Positions 11,668 through 56,032 are shown, counted from the first letter of the stretch. The stretch: 64,000 nucleotides of DNA from Ostreococcus lucimarinus (GCA_000092065.1 CP000592.1); one strand, 5' to 3'. The notes: a model not told the origin generated them from the sequence alone. A program made the numbers and translations.

Positions 11668-12852
11668 TTAATACCGGAAGTCTCGAACGGTCTTGAAGAA
11701 GTGTCCAACGTTTTCCTCTGGGGTGCCGACCATGACCCCGTGACCGAGATTCATGACGTGCTTCTTGTTTCCAGCCTTGGCGATCGTTTCGTGCACCTTT
11801 TTCGTGATGAAATCTTGCGACGCAAAGAGGTGGAGCGGATCCATGTTCCCTTGCACCGCCTGATCCATACCGAGTCGAGCGCGCGCGTCCGCCATGTCAA
11901 TCGTCCCGTCTAAGCTGATAACATCCGCGTTCGTCGTCGCTAAGCGCTCCAAGAAACCGGCACTTCCAGAGCTGTAAAGGATGAGCGGCACGTGTGGGTG
12001 GGTTTGCTTGCACTCGGCGACGATGCGTTGGAGGTACGGCAGGCAGTACACTTCGAAATCCGCGGGCGAAAACTCGCTTGCCCACGAGTCGAAAATTTGC
12101 ACCACTTGCGCCCCAGAGTCCGCTTGGTACCGCGTGTACTCGATCACGGCGTCCGTGAGCTTATTCATGAGCGCCTCGTACACCGCTGGCGAATCGAACG
12201 CCATTTTCTTAATCACCTTGTAGTGCGAGCTCGTCCCGCCCTCGACGATGTAAGACGCCAACGTAAACGGCGCTCCACAAAACCCGAGCAGCGTCGCCTC
12301 GTTCCCAATTTCATTTCTCAACACCTTCAACGACTCCCCGACGAACGGCACGCTCTTCTCCGGCTCCAACGGCGTGATGCTCTTGATATCGTCCATCTCG
12401 CGCACCGGGTTGAAGATGATCGGCCCCGTTCCCTTTACGATGTCGAACGGAATGTTCATCCCTTGCAACGGCGTGAGAATATCGCTGAACAAAATCACCC
12501 CATCGGGTTTAAACGCCTCGTACGGCTGCAGCGAGATCTCTACCGCGAGATCCACCGTCTCGCTTCGCTCTCGAAACGTCGTGTGCTTTTTGCACAAGTC
12601 TTGATACACCTTCATGTATCTCCCCGCCTGTCGCATCATCCAGATCGGCGGTCGCTCGACGTCTTCGCCTCGGATCGCGCGCAGCATGAGCGGATCGATG
12701 TCACCGCTCGACGCGCGCGCGCACGGCGCGCGGCGCACCGCGCGAGGGCGTCGGGACGCCGCGAGCGGTTTTTGGGCGCGCGCGCGGCGAACGACGTCGC
12801 GCGCGCGGGCGTCGGCGACGTCGGCGAGCGTCGAGGCGCGCAAGGTGGACAT
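11668..12852 (-). CDS. UROD: Uroporphyrinogen decarboxylase (HemE/UROD) with a chloroplast-type transit peptide
   Basis: PPIWMMRQAGRYMKVYQDL...FDSWAS... shows whole-length similarity to UroD. The N-terminal 60 aa are Ser/Arg/Ala-rich. ATG at 12852. Confidence 0.9.
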   Translation of the reverse strand: MSTLRASTLADVADARARDVVRRARAQKPLAASRRPRAVRRAPCARASSGDIDPLMLRAIRGEDVERPPIWMMRQAGRYMKVYQDLCKKHTTFRERSETVDLAVEISLQPYEAFKPDGVILFSDILTPLQGMNIPFDIVKGTGPIIFNPVREMDDIKSITPLEPEKSVPFVGESLKVLRNEIGNEATLLGFCGAPFTLASYIVEGGTSSHYKVIKKMAFDSPAVYEALMNKLTDAVIEYTRYQADSGAQVVQIFDSWASEFSPADFEVYCLPYLQRIVAECKQTHPHVPLILYSSGSAGFLERLATTNADVISLDGTIDMADARARLGMDQAVQGNMDPLHLFASQDFITKKVHETIAKAGNKKHVMNLGHGVMVGTPEENVGHFFKTVRDFRY

Positions 12853-13030: not shown

Positions 13031-16000
13031 TTACGCGGCCGTGGCGGCGTCCCATTGGATCCAGGCTGGAATACCCTCGTCGTCGTCTTCGTGCTCGTGG
13101 TCGTGGTCGACGTCGTCCTCGGCGAAGGATTCTTCGAGAGCGTCGGCGGAGTACGCGTCCGACTTTGATGCGTGCTTTTTGGACTTGTGAGAGTGTTTCG
13201 AGGAACCGTGCTGAGCGTGCGTCGAAAGGTTTTCGTCACCCTCGTCGTCGTCTTCGTCAAAGTCCGCGGAACTACTGCGATGAGAGCTCTTCTTCTTCGG
13301 CGCGCGCTCAACTGAGTCGTCCCACGGATTCTTATTGTGCTTGGAAGATTCTTTAGGGACAAAACTCTGTGATTCCGCGAGAGCCTCGAAGTCGACGCTT
13401 TCATCATGCTTCTTTCGTCCATGTCCGTGTGCATCGCGCGTGTCCTCGTCGACGTCGTCGTCGTCATCGTCGTACGAGTCGCTCGCCTTGGAGGCGCTCG
13501 AGGAGAAGAGATCGTACGAAATCTTGTGCTTCATATGTTTGGCGTCGTGCATGGAGTACGTCGAGCGGTGGTGATACAAATGATCAGCCGCGTCATCAGC
13601 GTATGTCGGCAACTTGGCGCCAGTGCGAGCAGCGACAGCTTCGCGCGGTTCTTCGTAATATTCTGTCTCGTCCACGTTTTGCTCGTCGTCAATCATGAGC
13701 GAGTTTTGATGAATTTCTGGAGGCTTGAGCGCGTCTAATCCATACGAGGTGCCCCAAAATGAACCATCGTGTCTATCTTTCGCGTACACAATTGGCTTGT
13801 CCGAAGTTGTCGAAGAAGTGACCGGGGCTTGCACAGCCGGAGCAAAGCGAGATGGCACCACTTGGCGCGCCGGCGCAAGCGCTGGACGACTTTGTGACGA
13901 TCCCGACATGGGTACCGGCTGCGCTGGCTGCTGATACGTGGCCGTCTGCTGCGGTTGCTGGTACGTAGTCGGCTGCGCTGGCTGCTGATACGTGGCCGTC
14001 TGCTGCGGTTGCTGGTACGTAGTCGGCTGCGCTGGCTGCTGATACGTGGCCGTCTGCTGCGGTTGCTGGTACGTAGTCGGCTGCGCTGGCTGCTGATACG
14101 TGGCCGTCTGCTGCGGTTGCTGGTACGTAGTCGGCTGCGCAGCAATCGGTTGCTGCCGCACCGTGTGATGTTTCTGCTCGCGGTCAGCTTGCGGTTGTTC
14201 CTTGTGACTGCTGTGTCTCGGCTCGACTTCTTCGAACTCGTCCGAAATGTCGCTCTTGTGATGCTTCTGCTCGCGATTCGGTCCGCCGTTCTGGTTTTCT
14301 TGCGTGAAATCTACGGGCGGTAAACCTCTCGACGCCTTCTCCCAGGGCGCCGCGTGGCCTTCGAATCCCAATGTGCTAGAACTATTGACCTCGGTTGCGT
14401 TCGTCTCAATGCCAGTCAGCGACTGCTGTTCCGCTGCGTTCGGGCTGGTGGTTGGAACTGGGGAAGATGAGGCCGGCGCCACGGGCGTAGGTAACACGTC
14501 CGTTGAAGTAGCTGCCTCAATGCCAGTCAGCGACTGCTGTTCCGCTGCGTTCGGGCTGGTGGTTGGAACTGGGGAAGATGAGGCCGGCGCCACGGGCGTA
14601 GGTAACACGTCCGTTGAAGTAGCTGCCTCAATGCCAGTCAGCGACTGCTGTTCCGCTGCGTTCGGGCTGGTGGTTGGAACTGGGGAAGATGAGGCCGGCG
14701 CCACGGGCGTAGGTAACACGTCCGTTGAAGTAGCTGCCTTCATCGCGTCAGCCAGCGTCATGGGATCTGAGTACTCCTCTGATGCGTCTTCCTGCGATGC
14801 ACCAAGCCTCGCTGCCGTCGGACGTGGCAACGCTTGCGCCTGTTCTGCCGGTGTGGTTCGACCAGCGTTTGTCGTGACGTTACCACCACTCACCTCAGAG
14901 TCGTCGTGAAACGCGCCGAGGGACGCTTGGAAGTGTTCCATGCTCCAGAAATCTTGATGCTTCCCAGCGCGTTGCATTTTCCAACCCCAGAAAAAGTTTG
15001 GCATGTTTGCGACCTCAAAAGCTCGCATTTGACCCCTGTACACAGCATGTTTCACTCTATCTTCGTCGCAGCCCATGGCGCTGTCGTGATGCGTCGCGAG
15101 CGACCACTCGCCCACACTAAATTGGTGCACTCCGATGTCCTCCGCCGTGCGCTTCACCTTCGCGATGTGCCCGGCCATGGCAGATCGAACGGTTTCAGTG
15201 ATGTGTTGCGACGAGTCCGAGCAACTCCAAGCGCACCCAGACTTGCATCCATTCACTCCCCAAGCGAGATAGAAGTGTGTGTCTAATACCGCCCACGTTC
15301 TAAGCTCTTCGCGATCGAACCACTTTCTCATGAGTTTCCCGTACTCTTGTACTGCTAGCCCACTCGTTTCCATCAAATTGACGTACAGCTTTGGCACGCG
15401 CTTGCCCGACATCTCGCGGGGTCGCGCCACGAGCTGACGATACGCAAAGATGGCCTTCTCCATCCATGCCAGCATCGCGTCGCGTTTCGCCGGCATCAAG
15501 TGCGCGGGTTCGTTCAAAAGCGTGAAGCCATCGACAAAATCCTTATCATCCTCAGTGAGGTGGTTGTACCACTTGAACATACTGTGAATCGCGTTCACAC
15601 CCACGTCTTGAAGTTTTGCGTCGTCCCAAAACGCCGGTGGGTGCGGAGACACGCCGTTGTACGTGCCCTCCGAGCTGCCACCGGGCATGTTGTGCATGTC
15701 GACTACCACTCGCGCCCCAGTCTTCTTGTGCAAGATTCGAAGAACGTTCGTCAACGTCATCTGATCGACAGTCACCTGCGCTCGATCGCTATACTTTGGG
15801 TCTTCGACCACTCGCGTCGGGCTTTTCTCCGTGCCCATGAACGCCGCCCAATTCACAGGTAGTCGCAGCGTCTTGTATCCCACTCGCGCGATCTTCTCCA
15901 CGTCCGCGTTCGTCATCCAACTCGATCGATACGCGTTCATAATCTTCACAGTCTTCAAATTCCCATACTTCTTCGCGAGTTTCGCCACCAACTCCCCCTC

Positions 16001-16573
16001 GCTCGACCACGAAAAACCGAGCTCCTCGGCTGAATTGAAAAACGGCGGCAACACCCTTCCCTGCGCGCGCCCGAGCGGCGAATCCACCAACGTGCTCTCA
16101 CCGTTCGCGAAGAACCAATCCTCGAGGTGCAACCATCCGTTCAACGCGACGCCCGCGTTATCCGGAACGCGCGTGAACGCCTCGCGCTCGACCGGCGTCA
16201 ATCCCAGCGCCGCGCTCTCGCGCGCGCGCGCGTCCCCCGTCGCCGTCCCTCGCGCGCGCGCCCCGAGCACCGCCACCATCGCGCCGAGCGCGACGCACGC
16301 CGCGCGTCCGCGTCGCCGCGCATCCCTTCCCGCGCCGTCGCTCGCTCGAGTCGTCTTCCCGCCGCGCGCGTCGTCGCCGGCGTCGCGCGCGCCGTCGTCG
16401 GCGTCGATCTCGCCGCGCGCGCGCTCGACGTCGTACGCGTCGTCGCGCGCGCGCGCGCGGTCGCGCGTCGCGCGGGACGACGACGGACGATCGCCGCCGC
16501 GTCCGAGCAGCGCCGCGCGCTCGCTCATGGCCGCCGTCGCGCGCGGTCGCGGTGTGATGACGCGCCCGCTCAT
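13031..16573 (-). CDS. Glycoside hydrolase family 5 protein (exo-beta-1,3-glucanase/mannanase-like) with an N-terminal signal-anchor and a long repetitive acidic C-terminal region
   Basis: The GH5 catalytic core (GWLHLEDWFFANG...VVDMHNMPGG...LLNEPAH with the NEP acid/base motif...GEWS) follows a hydrophobic segment (RRRGRAACVALGAMVAVLGARARG). The C-terminal half is low complexity: 3 x 37-aa repeats (ATSTDVLPTPVAPASSSPVPTTSPNAAEQQSLTGIEA), 4 x 18-aa repeats (PTTYQQPQQTATYQQPAQ), then an Asp/Glu/His/Lys/Ser-rich tail (DDDDDDVDEDTRDAHGHGRKKHDE..., HDHEHEDDDEG). The first ATG is at 16573. A second ATG at 16528 is also possible. Confidence 0.75.
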   Translation of the reverse strand: MSGRVITPRPRATAAMSERAALLGRGGDRPSSSRATRDRARARDDAYDVERARGEIDADDGARDAGDDARGGKTTRASDGAGRDARRRGRAACVALGAMVAVLGARARGTATGDARARESAALGLTPVEREAFTRVPDNAGVALNGWLHLEDWFFANGESTLVDSPLGRAQGRVLPPFFNSAEELGFSWSSEGELVAKLAKKYGNLKTVKIMNAYRSSWMTNADVEKIARVGYKTLRLPVNWAAFMGTEKSPTRVVEDPKYSDRAQVTVDQMTLTNVLRILHKKTGARVVVDMHNMPGGSSEGTYNGVSPHPPAFWDDAKLQDVGVNAIHSMFKWYNHLTEDDKDFVDGFTLLNEPAHLMPAKRDAMLAWMEKAIFAYRQLVARPREMSGKRVPKLYVNLMETSGLAVQEYGKLMRKWFDREELRTWAVLDTHFYLAWGVNGCKSGCAWSCSDSSQHITETVRSAMAGHIAKVKRTAEDIGVHQFSVGEWSLATHHDSAMGCDEDRVKHAVYRGQMRAFEVANMPNFFWGWKMQRAGKHQDFWSMEHFQASLGAFHDDSEVSGGNVTTNAGRTTPAEQAQALPRPTAARLGASQEDASEEYSDPMTLADAMKAATSTDVLPTPVAPASSSPVPTTSPNAAEQQSLTGIEAATSTDVLPTPVAPASSSPVPTTSPNAAEQQSLTGIEAATSTDVLPTPVAPASSSPVPTTSPNAAEQQSLTGIETNATEVNSSSTLGFEGHAAPWEKASRGLPPVDFTQENQNGGPNREQKHHKSDISDEFEEVEPRHSSHKEQPQADREQKHHTVRQQPIAAQPTTYQQPQQTATYQQPAQPTTYQQPQQTATYQQPAQPTTYQQPQQTATYQQPAQPTTYQQPQQTATYQQPAQPVPMSGSSQSRPALAPARQVVPSRFAPAVQAPVTSSTTSDKPIVYAKDRHDGSFWGTSYGLDALKPPEIHQNSLMIDDEQNVDETEYYEEPREAVAARTGAKLPTYADDAADHLYHHRSTYSMHDAKHMKHKISYDLFSSSASKASDSYDDDDDDVDEDTRDAHGHGRKKHDESVDFEALAESQSFVPKESSKHNKNPWDDSVERAPKKKSSHRSSSADFDEDDDEGDENLSTHAQHGSSKHSHKSKKHASKSDAYSADALEESFAEDDVDHDHEHEDDDEGIPAWIQWDAATAA
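13921..14150. repeat. 54-bp tandem repeat, about 4 copies, inside the GH5 coding region (encodes the 18-aa PTTYQQPQQTATYQQPAQ units)
   Basis: Near-perfect direct repeats of ctgcgctggctgctgatacgtggccgtctgctgcggttgctggtacgtagtcgg on the plus strand. The same periodicity shows up in the spurious overlapping track ORFs 13735-14145(-) and 13955-14323(+). Confidence 0.8.
14407..14740. repeat. 111-bp tandem repeat, 3 copies, inside the GH5 coding region (37-aa units)
   Basis: Three nearly identical copies of caatgccagtcagcgactgctgttccgctgcgttcgggctggtggttggaactggggaagatgaggccggcgccacgggcgtaggtaacacgtccgttgaagtagctgcct. Confidence 0.8.
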
Positions 16574-16743: not shown

Positions 16744-18366
16744 TCAGACGGCGCCGTAGGCGCCGCGCGCGCCGCGTCGGAGACGCGCGGCCTCGGGCGA
16801 CGCGTGACGGTGTCGCCTGTAAGCGACGAACGCCAAGGCGAGGAAACCGGTGAGAGCGACGGATGGGCCGATGAGCGACGCGTGGGAGTTCGAGGCGGCG
16901 TAGAGGGCTCGGCCCAAGGTTGGAACGCCGACGGGGCCGTCGCCGCCGACGGGGTAACCGCCGCCGGTGGTGCCGTCGCCGCCGACGGGGTAACCGCCGC
17001 CGGTGGCGCCGTCGCCGCCGACGGGGTAACCGCCGCCGGTGGTGCCGTCGCCGCCGACGGGGTGATCGCCGCCGGTGGTGCCGTCGCCGCCGACGGGGTA
17101 ACCGCCGCCGGTGGTGCCGTCGCCGCCGACGGGGTAACCGCCGCCGGTGGTGCCATCGCCGCCGACGGGGTAACCGCCGCCGGTGGTGCCATCGCCGCCG
17201 ATGGGGTGATCGCCGCCGGTGGTGCCGTCGCCGCCGTCGCCGCCGTCGCCGCCATCGCCGCCACCGCCGCCGATGCTGCCGTCGCCGCCTTCGCCGCCTT
17301 CGCCGCCGTCGCCGCCGTCGCCGCCGTCGCCGCCGTCGCCGCCGTCCACGTGAGCCAGGGCGTCTTCGCAGCCGGTGTTGACTTCCGGTAGGTTGGGCTT
17401 CGGATGACAGTGCGGGCCTTCTTCATCGTCGTCATCAGGGTTACCTTCGTCAAACTCACAACCAGCGTTTGCCTCGCATGCACTTTGGTCTTCGTCGCTC
17501 ATCGAACACTCAATGTCGCACAGGTCGATCTGCTTGTTGGTTTCCTTGACGAACGTCTGCAAGTCGCCAAATGTTCTCGGGCACACGTCGAAGCCCATGG
17601 CGTCCGACTCAGGGTGCGGGACGCAAAGTGCTCCGTTCGGGAGCTCTTCGTTCCATTCGCAGGCAATCATGCTAGTGCACGAGTCCGCATCGGTGCCCTC
17701 TCGACAAACCTCCACGCAAGGGTTGGTGGCGTCACCGCCGCCGTCGCCGCCGTCGCCGCCATCGCCGCCGTCGTGGCCGGTGGTGCCGTCACCGTCGCCG
17801 CCTTCGCCGCCTTCGCCGCCTTCGCCGCCTTCGCCGCCTTCGCCGCCTTCGCCGCCTTCGCCGCCGTTGCCGCCACCGCCGCCGTCGCCGCCGTCGCCGC
17901 CGTCCACGCGAGCCAAGGCGTCTTCGCAGCCAGTGTTGACTTCCGGTAGGTTGAACTTCGGACGACAGTGCGGGCCTTCTTCATCGCCGCCTTCAGGGTT
18001 TAGGCCTTCTTCATCGCCGCCTTCATCGCCGCCTTCAGGACCTTTGTCGAACTCACAACCAGCGTTTGCCTCGCACGTACTTTGGTCGTCGATGATCGAA
18101 CACTCGACTTCGCACAGGTTGATCTGCTGAATGTTGTTGGTAGTCTTGACGAACGTCTGTAACTCGCCAAATGTTTTCGGGCACGCGTCGAAGCCCATGG
18201 CGTACGACTCAGGGTGCGGGACGCACGTCGAGTCCGCGTCGCCCCATTCGCAGGCGAGCATGGCGTCGCACGAGTCCGCGTCGGTTTTCGCTTGACAGAA
18301 GCCCTCGCAAGGGTTGTTGGCGTCGCCGCCAGCGGGGTAGCCGCCGTCGCCGCCATTGCCGCCGGT

Positions 18367-18409
<43 letters not shown>

Positions 18410-18534
18410 TTGCCGCCGGTGCCGCCGCCGGTGCCGCCGCCGCCGCCGCCATTGCCGCCGCCGCCATTGCCGCCGGTGCCGCCGCCGGTGCCGCCGCCGC
18501 CGCCGCCATTGCCGCCGGTGCCGCCGCCGCCGGT

Positions 18535-18595
<61 letters not shown>

Positions 18596-18912
18596 TTGCC
18601 GCCGGTGCCGCCGCCGGTGCCGCCGTCGCCGCCGTGACCGCCGCCGGTGCCGCCGTCGCCGCCGTGACCGCCGCCGTGACCGCCGTGACCGCCGCCCTGA
18701 CCGCCGCCGTGACCGCCGTGACCGCCGCCGTGACCGCCGCCGTGACCGCCGTGACCGCCGCCCTGACCGCCGCCGTGACCGCCGTGACCGCCGCCCTGAC
18801 CGCCGACAGCGTGACCGCCGACGTGACCGCCGTCACCCTCGCCGCGCGCCGCGTCGTCCGCGCGATCCGCCTCCTCCGTCGTCGCCGCCGTCACCGCGCC
18901 GCGTCGCGTCAT
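16744..18912 (-). CDS. Gly/His/Asp-rich repeat protein with two duplicated Cys-rich modules and a C-terminal transmembrane anchor (family unknown)
   Basis: The minus-strand ORF carries (GGGHGGHGG)n and poly-Gly tracts, then two about 90-aa modules that conserve all Cys positions (CEGFCQAKTDADSCDAMLACEWGD...CVPHPESYAMGFDACPKTFGELQTFVKT...CEANAGCEFD, and CVEVCREGTDADSCTSMIACEWNE...CVPHPESDAMGFDVCPRTFGDLQTFVKE...CEANAGCEFD). These are separated by (EGG)n/(DGG)n linkers and followed by about 9 GGYPVGGDGTTGG repeats and a TM helix plus basic tail (LTGFLALAFVAYRRHRH...). Conservation between the two modules argues that this strand is coding. The start codon is uncertain: the first internal ATG is at 18912 and the track start at 19095 lies in an AT-rich promoter-like repeat. 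No signal peptide was identified. Confidence 0.4.
16920..17270. repeat. About 36-39 bp tandem repeats (about 9 copies) encoding GGYPVGGDGTTGG-type units
   Basis: ccgccgacggggtaaccgccgccggtggtgccgtcg is repeated with minor variants, and the track ORFs on both strands show the same periodicity. Confidence 0.8.
18330..18830. repeat. Long GGN/CCN triplet-repeat tract (Gly-rich on minus, Pro-rich on plus)
   Basis: (gccgcc)n, (ccgccggtg)n and (gtgaccgcc)n runs. Minus-strand translation gives GGGGG...GGTGGNGGG and (GGHGG)n. Plus-strand translation gives PPPPPP... Confidence 0.8.
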
Positions 18913-19043
18913 CGCGCGTTCGAGCGTTCGAGTACGTTCGCGGTCGCGCGCGCGCGTCGCGGGAGCGCTCGCGTGTGTCGCGCGCGCGTCGTTCGCCGTC
19001 GACGACGCCGATCCATCATCGCTGACGCGGATCGGGGGTGTTG

Positions 19044-19300
19044 CGCAGAGTCGGAATCTTCGATATACCGTAAATATACGCCTTTGTATGTACATTAAAC
19101 ACGTAGAGTAACTCGTAACACCCCATCAATATGCGTGGAGCGAGACGCGCGGCGTGCGACCTCTCTGTGTGTGACGCAGCGTCGGAATCTTCGATATGCC
19201 GTAAATCTACTCTTGTGTATGTACATTAAACACGTATAATCACTAGTAACACTCTATGTGTGGAAACGCGTGCGACCTCTCTGCGTGCCCAGACTGCGCG
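19044..19300. repeat. AT-rich tandem duplication, about 130 bp x 2, in the intergenic/promoter region
   Basis: Copy 1 (about 19044-19175) and copy 2 (about 19176-19300) share gcAGnGTCGGAATCTTCGATATnCCGTAAAT.TAC...TGTATGTACATTAAACACGTA.A.T.ACT.GTAACAC followed by ...GTGCGACCTCTCTG.... Each copy contains the palindromic core ATGTACAT. The GC content is sharply lower than in the flanks. Confidence 0.7.
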
Positions 19301-54424: not shown

Positions 54425-54718
54425 GTTCGCGTCCGCGTCGCGTCGTGGAAAGACGGCGCGGCGCTCGCGGCGCGCGCGCGCGCGCGCGTTGGTTTTACGA
54501 TCGACCCACGCGTTCGCGATGATGGGCTTCGATCGCGCTTCAACGCGCATCCGGCGCGTCGTGCGTGCGCGCGAAGGTCTGGTGGCGTGCGTCGCGGGTC
54601 GATCGATCGCGCGCGTCGCGATCGAACCTCGCCGCGAGGTTCGATCGAGTCGCGCGACCGGCGCGTCGTCGATCGAGCGGTGCGAACCGACCGGACGACG
54701 TCACACCGACGCGCGACG

Positions 54719-56032
54719 ATGGCGACGACGGCGCGCGCGGCGACGACGCGCGCGGCGACGACGCGCGCGACGACGAAGACGACGACGCGCGCGACGACGA
54801 CGACGCGACGCGCGCGCGCGACGAACGAGGGCGAGACGCGCGCGGCGACGGGCGACGACGAAGACGACGCTCGAGCGCGAGAGCGCGAGAGCGCGAGGCG
54901 ACGGGACGACGCGTTCTCGTCGTTCGAGCGCGCGCTGGCGGACGCGGCGTCGTTCGGGTCGTCGAGCTCGTCGGGACGGGGGTGGACGCGCGTGGACGAC
55001 GCGTGGGCGCTGGCGCCGCGCGCGGGCGTCGAGGCCAAGGCGGTGGTGCACTTTTGCGGCGGCGCGTTCGTGGGAGCGTCGCCGCAGGTGACGTACGGGG
55101 AGTTTTGCGAGCGATTGGTGGAGCGGGGAGAGGTGGTGGTGATCGCGACGCCCGTGCAGCTGGGGTTGGATCACCTGCGCGTCGCGGACGAGGCGTGGCA
55201 AAAGTACGAGCGCGCGTCGAGGGCGCTGAGGAAGACGATGGACGGGTTCGACGATCTGCCGGTGTACGGCGTCGGACACTCGTTGGGGGCGTTGGTGACC
55301 GTGCTCATCGGGTCGAGATACGAAACGAAGCGACGGGGGAACGTGTTGATGTCGTTTAATAACAAGCCGGCGACGGATGCGATTCCGCTCTTCGCCGAGC
55401 TCTTCGCCCCGGGATTGCAAGGACTTTCGCCCATTCTCGACGCCGCGCAAAAGTCGCCGCTGCGCGCGTTGCAGCGAAACGCCGACGCGCAGCTTCGTGA
55501 GCTCGCGCCGCCTTTGGTCAAGGAGCTTTTACCCATCCTGGACACTCTCGAGCCGGTGATTTTGGAAGTCGCCGACGGGCGCGCCGAGTTCACGCCGACG
55601 CCCGAGGAATCGGCGAAATTGGTGAGGAAGTACTACGCCGTGCGCAAGAATTTGTTGATCAAGTTTACCGACGACACCATCGACGAGACCAGCGCGCTCG
55701 CCGCCACGCTCGCGGGCGCGGTGGCGGCGGAGGATATCGATCTCACCGTGCGCACGCGAAAAGGCGACCACGTCTTCCCGCTCTGGCGCGACACCGGCAT
55801 CGACGTTCCGGACGAAGTCTACGAGGCCGCGGAGCAAGGCGGCGAAATTCTCGCCGCGTTCGGGGACGCGTTCGGGATCAAAGCCGATAGCTCGCCGCTC
55901 GGTGTACTCCGAGAGGGCTTCGACCGCGCGCGCACGCAAGCCAAGGAGGCGCGCTCGGCGCCGGGCGTCGACGAAAACCGCATCCTCATGAACGCCCTCG
56001 TCGACGACGTCGTGAATTGGATGGCGATTTAG
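54719..56032 (+). CDS. DUF1350 family protein (chloroplast-type alpha/beta-hydrolase-like) with a Thr/Arg/Ala-rich transit peptide
   Basis: The C-terminal 300 aa match DUF1350 (VVHFCGGAFVGASPQVTYGEFCERLVERGEVVVIATP...LPVYGVGHSLGALVTVLIG...). Proposed start is ATG at 54719 (MATTARAATTRAATTRATTKTTTRATTTTRRARAT...). The upstream 200 codons of the track ORF are Arg/Pro junk spanning the RPS15 promoter. Confidence 0.65.
   Translation: MATTARAATTRAATTRATTKTTTRATTTTRRARATNEGETRAATGDDEDDARARERESARRRDDAFSSFERALADAASFGSSSSSGRGWTRVDDAWALAPRAGVEAKAVVHFCGGAFVGASPQVTYGEFCERLVERGEVVVIATPVQLGLDHLRVADEAWQKYERASRALRKTMDGFDDLPVYGVGHSLGALVTVLIGSRYETKRRGNVLMSFNNKPATDAIPLFAELFAPGLQGLSPILDAAQKSPLRALQRNADAQLRELAPPLVKELLPILDTLEPVILEVADGRAEFTPTPEESAKLVRKYYAVRKNLLIKFTDDTIDETSALAATLAGAVAAEDIDLTVRTRKGDHVFPLWRDTGIDVPDEVYEAAEQGGEILAAFGDAFGIKADSSPLGVLREGFDRARTQAKEARSAPGVDENRILMNALVDDVVNWMAI

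What the first reader, a model, noticed from the sequence alone, without database searches (positions are those of the whole stretch)
13031..16573. GH5 glycosidase fused to a very long repetitive C-terminal region ending in an Asp/Glu/His-rich tail
A normal GH5 catalytic domain (about 400 aa) is followed by about 700 aa of low-complexity sequence. This contains two families of perfect or near-perfect tandem repeats, 3 x 111 bp and about 4 x 54 bp. The near-identity at the DNA level implies recent expansion or concerted evolution. The tail is rich in His, Asp and Ser/Lys (HGHGRKKHDE, DHDHEHEDDDEG), resembling cation-binding tails of cell-wall or biomineral-associated proteins. An N-terminal hydrophobic segment after about 95 residues suggests a type II membrane or secreted enzyme.
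Basis: seen in the sequence. Interest (0 to 1): 0.5.

Follow-up and report, generated by a model that had tools for sequence, protein, structure and literature searches.

The report
Ostreococcus GH5 glycosidase with variable repeat tail
This is a real gene of the tiny marine green alga Ostreococcus encoding a probably membrane-anchored sugar-cleaving enzyme with a long, floppy, repeat-containing tail whose repeat number differs between assemblies of the same species; it is a lineage-specific variant of a common enzyme type, not a new kind of system.

Summary
One intact minus-strand ORF (stop 13031-13033; likely start 16528, alternative 16573) encodes about 1165 aa. In order it has an Arg/Ala/Asp-rich N-terminus, a short hydrophobic anchor, a divergent but complete GH5 catalytic domain, and a 620-aa tail.

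The tail holds 3 x 111 bp and 4.2 x 54 bp tandem repeats, both 100% identical at the DNA level. The neighbouring HemE gene places the window in Ostreococcus.

The GH5 domain has all eight canonical GH5 residues. It models confidently and is closest to exo-acting GH5 enzymes such as Candida exo-beta-1,3-glucanase and rutinosidase.

The tail is not uniformly low-complexity. Across about six Ostreococcus lineages it consists of:
- a Gln/Pro/Thr/Ala-rich spacer carrying different repeats in each lineage;
- a block of about 100 aa that is about 80% conserved, apparently genus-restricted, and has no known family or confident fold;
- an acidic Ser/Asp/Glu/Lys tail.

His-richness is not conserved (2-8%), which weakens the metal or biomineral idea.

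About 100 same-species metagenomic variants carry 1-5 copies of the 18-aa unit and 1-2 of the 37-aa unit, always in frame. The window has the longest allele seen. The tail's function is unknown. Interest is modest.

The parts
13031..16528 (-). Coding sequence of the GH5 protein (1165 aa plus stop). An in-frame alternative ATG lies at 16573 and the ORF stays open up to 16636.
   Evidence: The MSERAALL start matches homologue P0010 and several metagenomic gene calls.
16304..16528 (-). N-terminal region, residues 1-75. It is Arg/Ala/Asp/Gly-rich and inferred to be cytosolic.
   Evidence: Composition is R 22%, A 21%, D 16%. It precedes the hydrophobic segment and carries an RRRGR flank.
16259..16303 (-). 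Hydrophobic segment AACVALGAMVAVLGA, residues 76-90. It is inferred to be a type II signal anchor.
   Evidence: It is the only hydrophobic peak in the protein: mean Kyte-Doolittle 1.88 over 17 aa and 1.42 over 19 aa. Orthologues and paralogues have stronger segments (1.7-2.9) at the same position, and the Triparma homologues have N-terminal signal-peptide-like segments.
14894..16156 (-). GH5 (beta/alpha)8 catalytic domain, residues about 125-545. Acid/base E340 is in the NEP motif (15509-15511). Nucleophile E474 is in the GEWS motif (15107-15109).
13814..14893 (-). Variable spacer, residues 546-905. It is rich in Ala/Gln/Pro/Thr/Ser and carries three N-x-S/T sites.
   Evidence: Composition is. 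It cannot be aligned to O. tauri although both are Q/P-rich. Spacer length is 251-390 aa among orthologues.
14405..14739 (-). 3.0 x 111-bp perfect tandem repeat. The unit encodes 37 aa: ATSTDVLPTPVAPASSSPVPTTSPNAAEQQSLTGIEA.
   Evidence: TRF 100% matches. Exact copies confirmed. Other same-species alleles have 1 copy (about 94 variants) or 2 copies (3 variants).
13916..14140 (-). 4.2 x 54-bp perfect tandem repeat. The unit encodes 18 aa: PTTYQQPQQTATYQQPAQ, itself an internal 9-aa half-repeat.
   Evidence: TRF 100% matches, plus a period-27 reading at 75%. Exact copies confirmed. Other alleles have 1, 2, 3 or about 5 copies.
13493..13813 (-). Conserved block of about 100 aa, residues 906-1012 (PIVYAKDRHDGSFWGTSYGLDAL...EYYEEPRE...LPTYADDA...RSTYSMHDAK...SYDLFS). 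No known family.
   Evidence: About 80% identical to O. tauri. More than 50 invariant columns across six lineages. Only 9 hits among 1.84 billion representative proteins; the five retrieved are Ostreococcus-type orthologue fragments. No Pfam hit. AF2 pLDDT is 55-67.
13034..13492 (-). Polyampholyte, net-acidic tail, residues 1013-1165 (D/S/A/E/K/H-rich). It ends in EGIPAWIQWDAATAA.
   Evidence: Composition and net charge of -27 are. Orthologous tails have D+E 23-32%, S 15-22% and His 2.3-8.3%. A C-terminal (V/I)PxW motif is present in 4 of 6 lineages. AF2 pLDDT is 40-50.

Best explanation
The gene encodes a retaining GH5 beta-glycosidase of an uncharacterised algal clade, in an Ostreococcus species. 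[quoted passage not shown]

A short N-terminal signal anchor probably inserts it into a secretory-pathway or plasma membrane. That would place the catalytic domain and the whole 620-aa C-terminus on the lumenal or extracellular side.

The C-terminus is a lineage-specific, mostly disordered appendage in three parts:
- a Gln/Pro/Thr/Ala-rich spacer that grows and shrinks by in-frame tandem duplication, which explains the perfect 111-bp and 54-bp arrays and the copy-number differences between assemblies;
- a genus-conserved motif block of about 100 aa, most likely an interaction segment;
- an acidic Ser/Asp/Glu/Lys tail.

Shown here: the gene is intact; the GH5 fold and catalytic residues are present; the tail has conserved and variable parts; repeat number differs between assemblies.

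Inferred only: membrane topology, substrate, disorder, and any role of the tail.
For: Organism:
- The adjacent HemE is 99% identical to P0027, whose 90% cluster contains O. tauri Q00XQ9.
- The locus is syntenic with, and 94-99.6% identical to, a 185-kb metagenome contig.

Enzyme:
- All eight GH5 signature residues are invariant or nearly invariant in an 18-sequence alignment.
- AF2 pLDDT is 92.5.
- Foldseek places Candida Exg first, E 6e-16.
- A profile of the algal clade hits fungal exo-1,3-beta-glucanases at E 4e-13 to 1e-10.
- The GGWLxLExW motif aligns with that of the exo-glucanases.

Secretory location:
- An N-terminal hydrophobic segment is conserved in position among homologues.
- Cysteines of the domain (C428/C432/C436/C487) align with conserved Cys columns in the algal clade.
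- There are four N-x-S/T sites.

Tail anatomy:
- Searches give the conserved and variable parts.
- The block appears restricted to Ostreococcus.
- The AF2 model of block plus tail is poor, pLDDT 50.8.

Repeat dynamics:
- Window 3 x 111 and 4 x 54, versus L001 1 x 111 and 5 x 54.
- 99 same-species variants carry 1, 2, 3 or about 5 copies of the 18-aa unit and 1 or 2 copies of the 37-aa unit.
- A second species has 1058-aa and 1090-aa alleles that differ by a perfect 32-aa duplication in its own spacer; the representatives of the two forms are recorded on 23 and 20 contigs.
- O. tauri has a different, degenerate QPQQRQVVA-type array at the same place.
Against: - No biochemical or transcript evidence exists for this protein.
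- The anchor is short (15 aa) and falls below the classical Kyte-Doolittle threshold over 19 aa (1.42).
- Ostreococcus has no obvious beta-1,3-glucan (general knowledge: starch storage, no wall), so the substrate is open.
- The poor AF2 model may reflect a 6-sequence alignment rather than true disorder.
- Many of the 1-copy alleles come from contigs of about 10 kb, probably short-read assemblies that can collapse perfect repeats. The two longest contigs (367 kb and 185 kb) carry about 4.5-5 copies of the 18-aa unit, so the frequency spectrum is unreliable.
Confidence: 0.6

Rival explanations
1. The Asp/Glu/His-rich tail is a cation- or metal-binding module, like those of cell-wall or biomineral-associated proteins. 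It would tether the enzyme to a charged matrix or buffer Ca2+ or metals.
For: Net charge is -27 over the last 157 aa, with runs such as DDDDDDVDED and DHDHEHEDDDEG. Acidic, Ser-rich composition is conserved in all six orthologous tails, with D+E 23-32% and S 15-22%. The tail probably lies in the secretory or extracellular space.
Against: His is not conserved. It is 8.3% here, 7.8% in P0181, but 2.3-5.2% in the others, including O. tauri at 2.5%. There is no match to any known metal-binding family. From general knowledge Ostreococcus has no wall, scales or mineral. Composition alone does not show binding.
Confidence: 0.15
2. The repeat spacer is a hypervariable surface-exposed region. Its length variation would be maintained by selection, for example from prasinovirus attachment or grazers, rather than by neutral slippage.
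For: Independent in-frame expansions have occurred in the same spacer in at least three Ostreococcus lineages. Many length alleles are present in metagenomes. The adjacent gene 16744-19095 also encodes a repetitive protein with a C-terminal hydrophobic segment, and it differs in length between the window and L001. Surface glycan remodelling is linked to virus resistance in O. tauri (PMC5082852).
Against: There is no test of selection. The gene is not among those named in the O. tauri resistance study passages read. Slippage in low-complexity coding DNA produces the same pattern neutrally. Assembly collapse inflates apparent variation.
Confidence: 0.12
3. The repeat counts in the window are an assembly artefact, or the repeat-bearing spacer is an intron, so the mature protein lacks the arrays.
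For: No other same-species sequence has three copies of the 37-aa unit; the maximum is 2. Perfect repeats are error-prone in assembly. An O. tauri gene model (OUS46639.1) shows that annotators have predicted splicing in this region.
Against: Assemblers usually collapse perfect repeats rather than expand them. The array structure is recovered independently: 2-copy 37-aa alleles exist (P0222 with 37 member sequences, P0223, P0224), as do 2-5-copy 18-aa alleles, some with unit-specific substitutions. Unit lengths are multiples of 3. The downstream conserved block stays in the catalytic-domain frame in every allele and species. The probability of no stop in 620 codons by chance is about 2e-9.
Confidence: 0.07
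4. The protein is not membrane-bound or secreted. The hydrophobic segment is too weak, the enzyme acts on an intracellular glycoconjugate, and the Lys/Ser/Asp tail is a cytosolic or nuclear disordered region.
For: The 19-aa Kyte-Doolittle score is only 1.42, and the segment is Ala/Gly-rich. K/S/D/E-rich tails are common in nuclear proteins (general knowledge).
Against: Positional homologues have strong TM or signal segments (1.7-2.9). Conserved cysteines and N-x-S/T sites fit a lumenal domain. The nearest characterised enzymes are secreted.
Confidence: 0.05

Closest known systems
Fungal GH5_9 exo-beta-1,3-glucanases (Candida albicans Exg/XOG1, PDB 1CZ1/2PB1; S. cerevisiae Exg1, 1H4P; A. oryzae AoBgl, 8Z2W)
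   Different: Identity is only 17-22%. The source is a green alga, not a fungus. There is no fungal-type beta-glucan wall to act on. The 620-aa repetitive tail is absent from these enzymes. Subfamily placement by phylogeny was not done.
GH5_23 fungal diglycosidases (Aspergillus niger rutinosidase, PDB 6I1A; AoRut, 6LA0)
   Different: Identity is 16%. The sequence-profile E-value is much weaker than for the exo-glucanases. The substrate is a plant flavonoid glycoside.
CAZy subfamily GH5_32 ('Plants; Stramenopiles', no characterised member; PMC3526467, still uncharacterised in PMC12751061)
   Same: The taxonomic range matches what was found here. The clade includes Ostreococcus and other metagenomic picoalgal sequences, the stramenopile Triparma and a dinoflagellate.
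   Different: Membership could not be tested because no subfamily models or member lists were available. This is a lead only.
Modular glycoside hydrolases with Pro/Thr/Ser-rich linkers joining a catalytic domain to a binding module
   Same: The order is the same: a catalytic domain, then an extended low-complexity linker, then a conserved distal segment.
   Different: The linker is several times longer (251-390 aa) and Gln-rich. The distal block matches no CBM or Pfam family and is not predicted to fold.
Ostreococcus paralogue clade (P0005 cluster, including O. mediterraneus A0A7S0PNH0, 'Glycoside hydrolase family 5 domain-containing protein', 779 aa)
   Same: Same algal GH5 clade, an N-terminal TM, and a C-terminal extension of about 250 aa with acidic stretches.
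   Different: Only 36% identical in the domain. The tail is shorter, unrelated, and lacks the conserved block.

Membership tests
Glycoside hydrolase family 5 (clan GH-A) | (beta/alpha)8 barrel fold | tested here: met
Glycoside hydrolase family 5 (clan GH-A) | Match to the family profile (Pfam PF00150) above the gathering score | tested here: inconclusive
   There is no hit on the full protein. The isolated domain scores 24.5 bits against a cut-off of 23.5, E 2.3e-5.
Glycoside hydrolase family 5 (clan GH-A) | Conserved residues: Arg, His, Asn-Glu (acid/base, NEP), His-x-Tyr, Glu (nucleophile), Trp | tested here: met
   R222, H279, N339-E340-P341, H418, Y420, E474 (in GEWS) and W514 are invariant or at least 90% conserved in alignment A1. 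Coordinates were verified.
Glycoside hydrolase family 5 (clan GH-A) | Retaining hydrolysis of beta-glycosidic bonds | not testable with these tools
   This needs an enzyme assay.
GH5_9 fungal exo-beta-1,3-glucanases | Groups inside the subfamily in a GH5 phylogeny or subfamily HMM | not tested
   No dbCAN or subfamily models were available. Identity to members is 17-22%. According to PMC3526467 the subfamily is fungal only.
GH5_9 fungal exo-beta-1,3-glucanases | N-terminal GGWLxLExW motif, with the Glu that closes the -1 pocket (E27 in Candida Exg; the role is recalled from memory) | tested here: met
   GWLHLEDW aligns to GGWLVLEPW of 8Z2W. The Glu and Trp are at least 90% conserved in the algal clade.
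GH5_32 (Plants; Stramenopiles) | Membership by the CAZy subfamily model | not testable with these tools
   Only the taxonomic range agrees. The supplement search found no member list.
Type II (signal-anchor) membrane protein | A single N-terminal TM segment with a positively charged cytosolic flank, and no cleavable N-terminal signal peptide | tested here: inconclusive
   The one hydrophobic peak is at residues 76-90, preceded by RRRGR. Kyte-Doolittle is 1.88 over 17 aa but 1.42 over 19 aa. Stronger segments sit at the same position in relatives. No dedicated predictor was available.
Catalytic domain - linker - carbohydrate-binding module architecture | A folded binding module at the far end of the linker | tested here: not met
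   The conserved block has no Pfam match. AF2 pLDDT is 55-67 and pTM 0.13, with only short helices. The caveat is that the alignment has only 6 sequences.
His/Asp-rich cation-binding tails | His-rich and acidic motifs conserved among orthologues | tested here: not met
   Acidic, Ser-rich content is conserved, but His ranges from 2.3% to 8.3%, and the HGHG and DHDHEHE motifs are not seen in the other five lineages.
Coding minisatellite (VNTR) | Unit length a multiple of 3, near-identical units, and copy number that varies among individuals | tested here: met
   Units are 111 bp and 54 bp at 100% identity. There are 1-5 and 1-3 copies among the window, L001 and 99 metagenomic variants. The caveat is repeat collapse in short-read assemblies.

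The most novel reading that the evidence does not exclude
The genus-conserved 100-aa block plus the polyanionic tail would be a previously undescribed extracellular tethering or cation-binding module. It would hold an exo-beta-glucosidase at a set distance from the surface of a wall-less picoalga. The length of the Q/P-rich spacer would then be under selection, for example from prasinovirus contact or from access to dissolved beta-glucans such as laminarin. On this reading the repeat polymorphism is functional rather than neutral slippage.
Probability: 0.1. Interest if true: 0.55.

Novelty: new member of a known kind. Interest (0 to 1): 0.3.

Why it matters
The gene shows that a wall-less marine picoalga keeps an intact, probably surface- or lumen-facing exo-type GH5 enzyme from an algal clade with no characterised member.

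Its tail is a clean natural example of a coding minisatellite that has expanded independently in several Ostreococcus lineages. The repeats could serve as a strain-typing marker in metagenomes.

The conserved 100-aa block is a small uncharacterised module that can be tested in O. tauri, which I recall to be genetically transformable.

None of this changes current understanding. The practical value lies in annotation:
- correcting the O. tauri model that fuses this gene with HemE;
- recognising a GH5 domain that Pfam misses on the full-length protein;
- warning that the repeat number of this gene is unreliable in short-read assemblies.

Tried and rejected
- Pfam on the full protein, and on the spacer and block, gave nothing. 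The terminal tail gave only two non-significant matches (Tub_N E 2.1, GET2 E 8).
- Exact-sequence look-up of the window proteins found none in the collection, so the strain is not one of the annotated references.
- The AF2 model of block plus tail was uninformative: pLDDT 50.8 from 6 sequences. It was therefore not used for fold search.
- The afdb50 fold library was unavailable.
- L002, the contig of a 59%-identical orthologue, ends before the tail.
- L003, a 43%-identical syntenic homologue, has a frameshift-looking N-terminus and an Arg-rich C-terminus that looks out of frame. It was not pursued.
- The supplement of the GH5 subfamily paper holds no member list.
- Literature searches found no paper on this gene or its tail. 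The O. tauri virus-resistance paper names a different glycoside hydrolase.
- The tail block is absent from viral contigs.
- A stramenopile (pelagophyte) origin was considered early, because Triparma was the closest named homologue. It was rejected after the HemE search placed the window in Ostreococcus.
- Microhomology at the 111-bp duplication junction is only 2 bp (AG), so no mechanism could be read from it.


Full report
**What is in the sequence**

The minus strand between 13031 and 16636 is one uninterrupted ORF. The ATG at 16528 (MSERAALL...) is the point from which a 70%-identical homologue aligns (P0010), and several metagenomic gene calls begin there. I number from it, giving 1165 aa.

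Tandem Repeats Finder reports two arrays:
- 14405-14739, period 111, 3.0 copies, 100% matches;
- 13916-14140, period 54, 4.2 copies, 100% matches.

Exact-match counting confirms three and four perfect units. Across the whole 64-kb window only this gene and its upstream neighbour carry strong tandem repeats, and these two arrays are the only perfect ones. Given local base composition, the chance of 620 stop-free tail codons is about 2e-9. Codon-position GC in the conserved block and the tail shows the same pattern as in the catalytic domain.

**Organism**

The gene immediately downstream on the same strand (11668-12852) is uroporphyrinogen decarboxylase. Its best match, P0027, is 99% identical. 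The 90% cluster of P0027 contains Ostreococcus tauri Q00XQ9, and Bathycoccus is at 78%. A 185-kb metagenome contig (L001) is collinear with the window and 94-99.6% identical. The window is therefore an Ostreococcus genome, from a strain whose exact proteins are not in the public collection.

**Catalytic domain**

Pfam does not detect GH5 in the full protein and only just detects it in the isolated domain: PF00150, 24.5 bits against a cut-off of 23.5. The domain is thus divergent rather than 'normal'. It is nevertheless complete:
- In an 18-sequence alignment the eight canonical GH5 positions are invariant or at least 90% conserved: R222, H279, N339-E340 (the NEP acid/base), H418, Y420, E474 (nucleophile, in GEWS) and W514 (coordinates verified).
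- AlphaFold2 models it at pLDDT 92.5.
- Foldseek against the PDB ranks Candida albicans exo-beta-1,3-glucanase first, at E 6e-16.
- A profile of the algal clade hits fungal exo-1,3-beta-glucanases at E 4e-13 to 1e-10 and aligns the GGWLxLExW motif.

Homologues at 30-43% identity come from picoalgal metagenomes, the stramenopile Triparma and a dinoflagellate. A paralogous Ostreococcus clade also exists, represented by O. mediterraneus A0A7S0PNH0.

The 2012 GH5 classification lists an uncharacterised subfamily GH5_32, 'Plants; Stramenopiles' (PMC3526467). It was still uncharacterised in late 2025 (PMC12751061). That is a plausible home for this protein, but I could not test it.

**Topology**

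The only hydrophobic peak is AACVALGAMVAVLGA at residues 76-90, preceded by RRRGR. It is short, with a 19-aa Kyte-Doolittle mean of 1.42. Every orthologue and paralogue with a complete N-terminus has a hydrophobic segment (1.7-2.9) 40-60 residues upstream of the domain, and the Triparma proteins have signal-peptide-like N-termini. Conserved cysteines in the domain and four N-x-S/T sites fit a lumenal or extracellular location. A type II anchor is thus a reasonable inference, not a demonstration.

**The tail has three parts**

O. tauri entry OUS46639.1 (P0151) turned out to be a gene model that fuses the orthologue of this gene with HemE. It supplied an interspecies comparison:
- The catalytic domain is about 78% identical between the two species.
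- The spacer (residues 546-905 here) cannot be aligned, although both are Gln/Pro-rich and both carry repeats. O. tauri has a degenerate QPQQRQVVA-type array.
- Residues 906-1012 are again about 80% identical.
- The remainder is similar only in composition.

A full HMMER scan of 1.84 billion representative proteins with the conserved block found only nine proteins. The five I retrieved are Ostreococcus-type orthologues. Six lineages share more than 50 invariant positions in the block. It has no Pfam match. Its AF2 model is poor (pLDDT 55-67, pTM 0.13, 6 sequences), so it may be a conserved disordered motif region, or simply under-sampled.

The terminal 115-158 residues are acidic and Ser-rich in all lineages: D+E 23-32%, S 15-22%, net charge -7 to -27. 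His varies from 2.3% to 8.3%, and the HGHG and DHDHEHE motifs are peculiar to this lineage. Four of six lineages end with a (V/I)PxW motif.

**Repeat dynamics**

L001 (same species) has one 111-bp unit and five 54-bp units. The window has three and four. The difference runs in both directions, so it is not a simple collapse.

A search with residues 500-1165 returned about 100 distinct same-species variants from metagenomes, 1036-1125 aa long. Counts are as follows:

| Unit | 1 copy | 2 copies | 3 copies | about 4.5-5 copies |
|---|---|---|---|---|
| 18-aa unit | 58 variants | 26 | 12 | 2 |
| 37-aa unit | about 94 variants | 3 | window only | none |

- Some alleles carry unit-specific substitutions (PTTH, PATY), which a collapse cannot create.
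- The window's allele is the longest combination seen.
- A second species has 1058-aa and 1090-aa forms that differ by a perfect 32-aa duplication in its own spacer. The representatives of the two forms are recorded on 23 and 20 contigs.
- All variants that span the region preserve the frame through the block and tail.
- Caveat: most 1-copy alleles are on contigs of about 10 kb, probably short-read. The two longest contigs (367 kb and 185 kb) have about 4.5-5 copies. Allele frequencies cannot be trusted.

**Interpretation**

The best-supported reading is an exo-type GH5 beta-glycosidase anchored in the secretory pathway or at the cell surface. It carries a lineage-specific, largely disordered C-terminal appendage. 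The spacer of that appendage is a coding minisatellite, and its distal block and acidic tail are under purifying selection for an unknown interaction.

Acidic clusters are conserved, His is not, and the alga is naked. An intron or an assembly artefact is unlikely but not excluded without cDNA and long reads. A virus-driven hypervariable surface region is an attractive but untested alternative; surface glycan remodelling is linked to virus resistance in O. tauri (PMC5082852).

**Novelty**

Ostreococcus GH5 sequences have been catalogued in CAZy since at least 2010 (PMC3091745), and the O. tauri orthologue is in GenBank as part of a fused model. I found no paper describing the tail, the conserved block or the repeat polymorphism. 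I rate this a new member of a known kind, with modest interest.

Noticed in passing
window 16744-19095 (-): The upstream neighbour is a 783-aa ORF with Gly-rich arrays (GGHGG, and eight copies of GGDGTTGGGYPVGGDG), two copies of a Cys-rich module, and a C-terminal hydrophobic segment followed by RRHRH. It has no Pfam match. Window 16953-17876 has no BLAST counterpart in the same-species contig L001, which points to length variation there too. Two adjacent genes thus encode repetitive, probably surface proteins.
   Followed up: partly
P0151 (O. tauri OUS46639.1, 1331 aa): This public O. tauri gene model fuses the GH5-plus-tail orthologue to the downstream uroporphyrinogen decarboxylase. It lacks the N-terminus and anchor, and it clusters under HemE. 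In the window the two ORFs are separate, with a stop at 13031-13033 and a 178-bp gap. The model is probably an annotation artefact.
   Followed up: partly
L004 2722-4377 (IMGVR GVMAG-S-ERX555967-130, 286-kb contig, GC about 34-43% in the locus): A giant-virus metagenome-assembled genome encodes a 551-aa homologue of this algal GH5 clade (26% identity). It has an N-terminal hydrophobic region, the NEP motif and an SEFS nucleophile motif. It lies close to ORFs that look like glycan-modifying enzymes by eye. Either the virus acquired an algal-type GH5 or the bin is contaminated.
   Followed up: partly
L001 9187-12133: In the 185-kb same-species contig the GH5 gene is split into two calls, P0001 and P0004, by a frameshift near residue 390. 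The contig differs from the window by many small indels, with 38-68 gap openings per 2.4-4 kb. This looks like an error-prone long-read assembly rather than a pseudogene.
   Followed up: partly
P0188 versus P0180 (second Ostreococcus species), N-terminal region: The poly-Ser run in the cytosolic N-terminus differs by four Ser between alleles. This is another small in-frame length polymorphism in the same gene.
   Followed up: no
L001, L002, L003 and the window: Microsynteny is conserved across homologues of 43-99% identity. An RFC subunit (AAA plus Rep_fac_C) lies one or two genes upstream of the GH5 gene in all three contigs, preceded by a NUDIX gene in L001 and L002.
   Followed up: no
window 54710-54870: Another 54-bp-period tandem repeat (3 copies, 79% matches) lies in GC-rich sequence. 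It was not examined.
   Followed up: no
window 13735-14909, other frames and the opposite strand: Long antisense or out-of-frame ORFs of 136-201 aa overlap the repeat arrays, for example 13735-14145 (-), 13955-14323 (+) and 14304-14909 (+). They inherit the repeat periodicity and look like by-products of GC-rich repetitive coding DNA, not genes.
   Followed up: no
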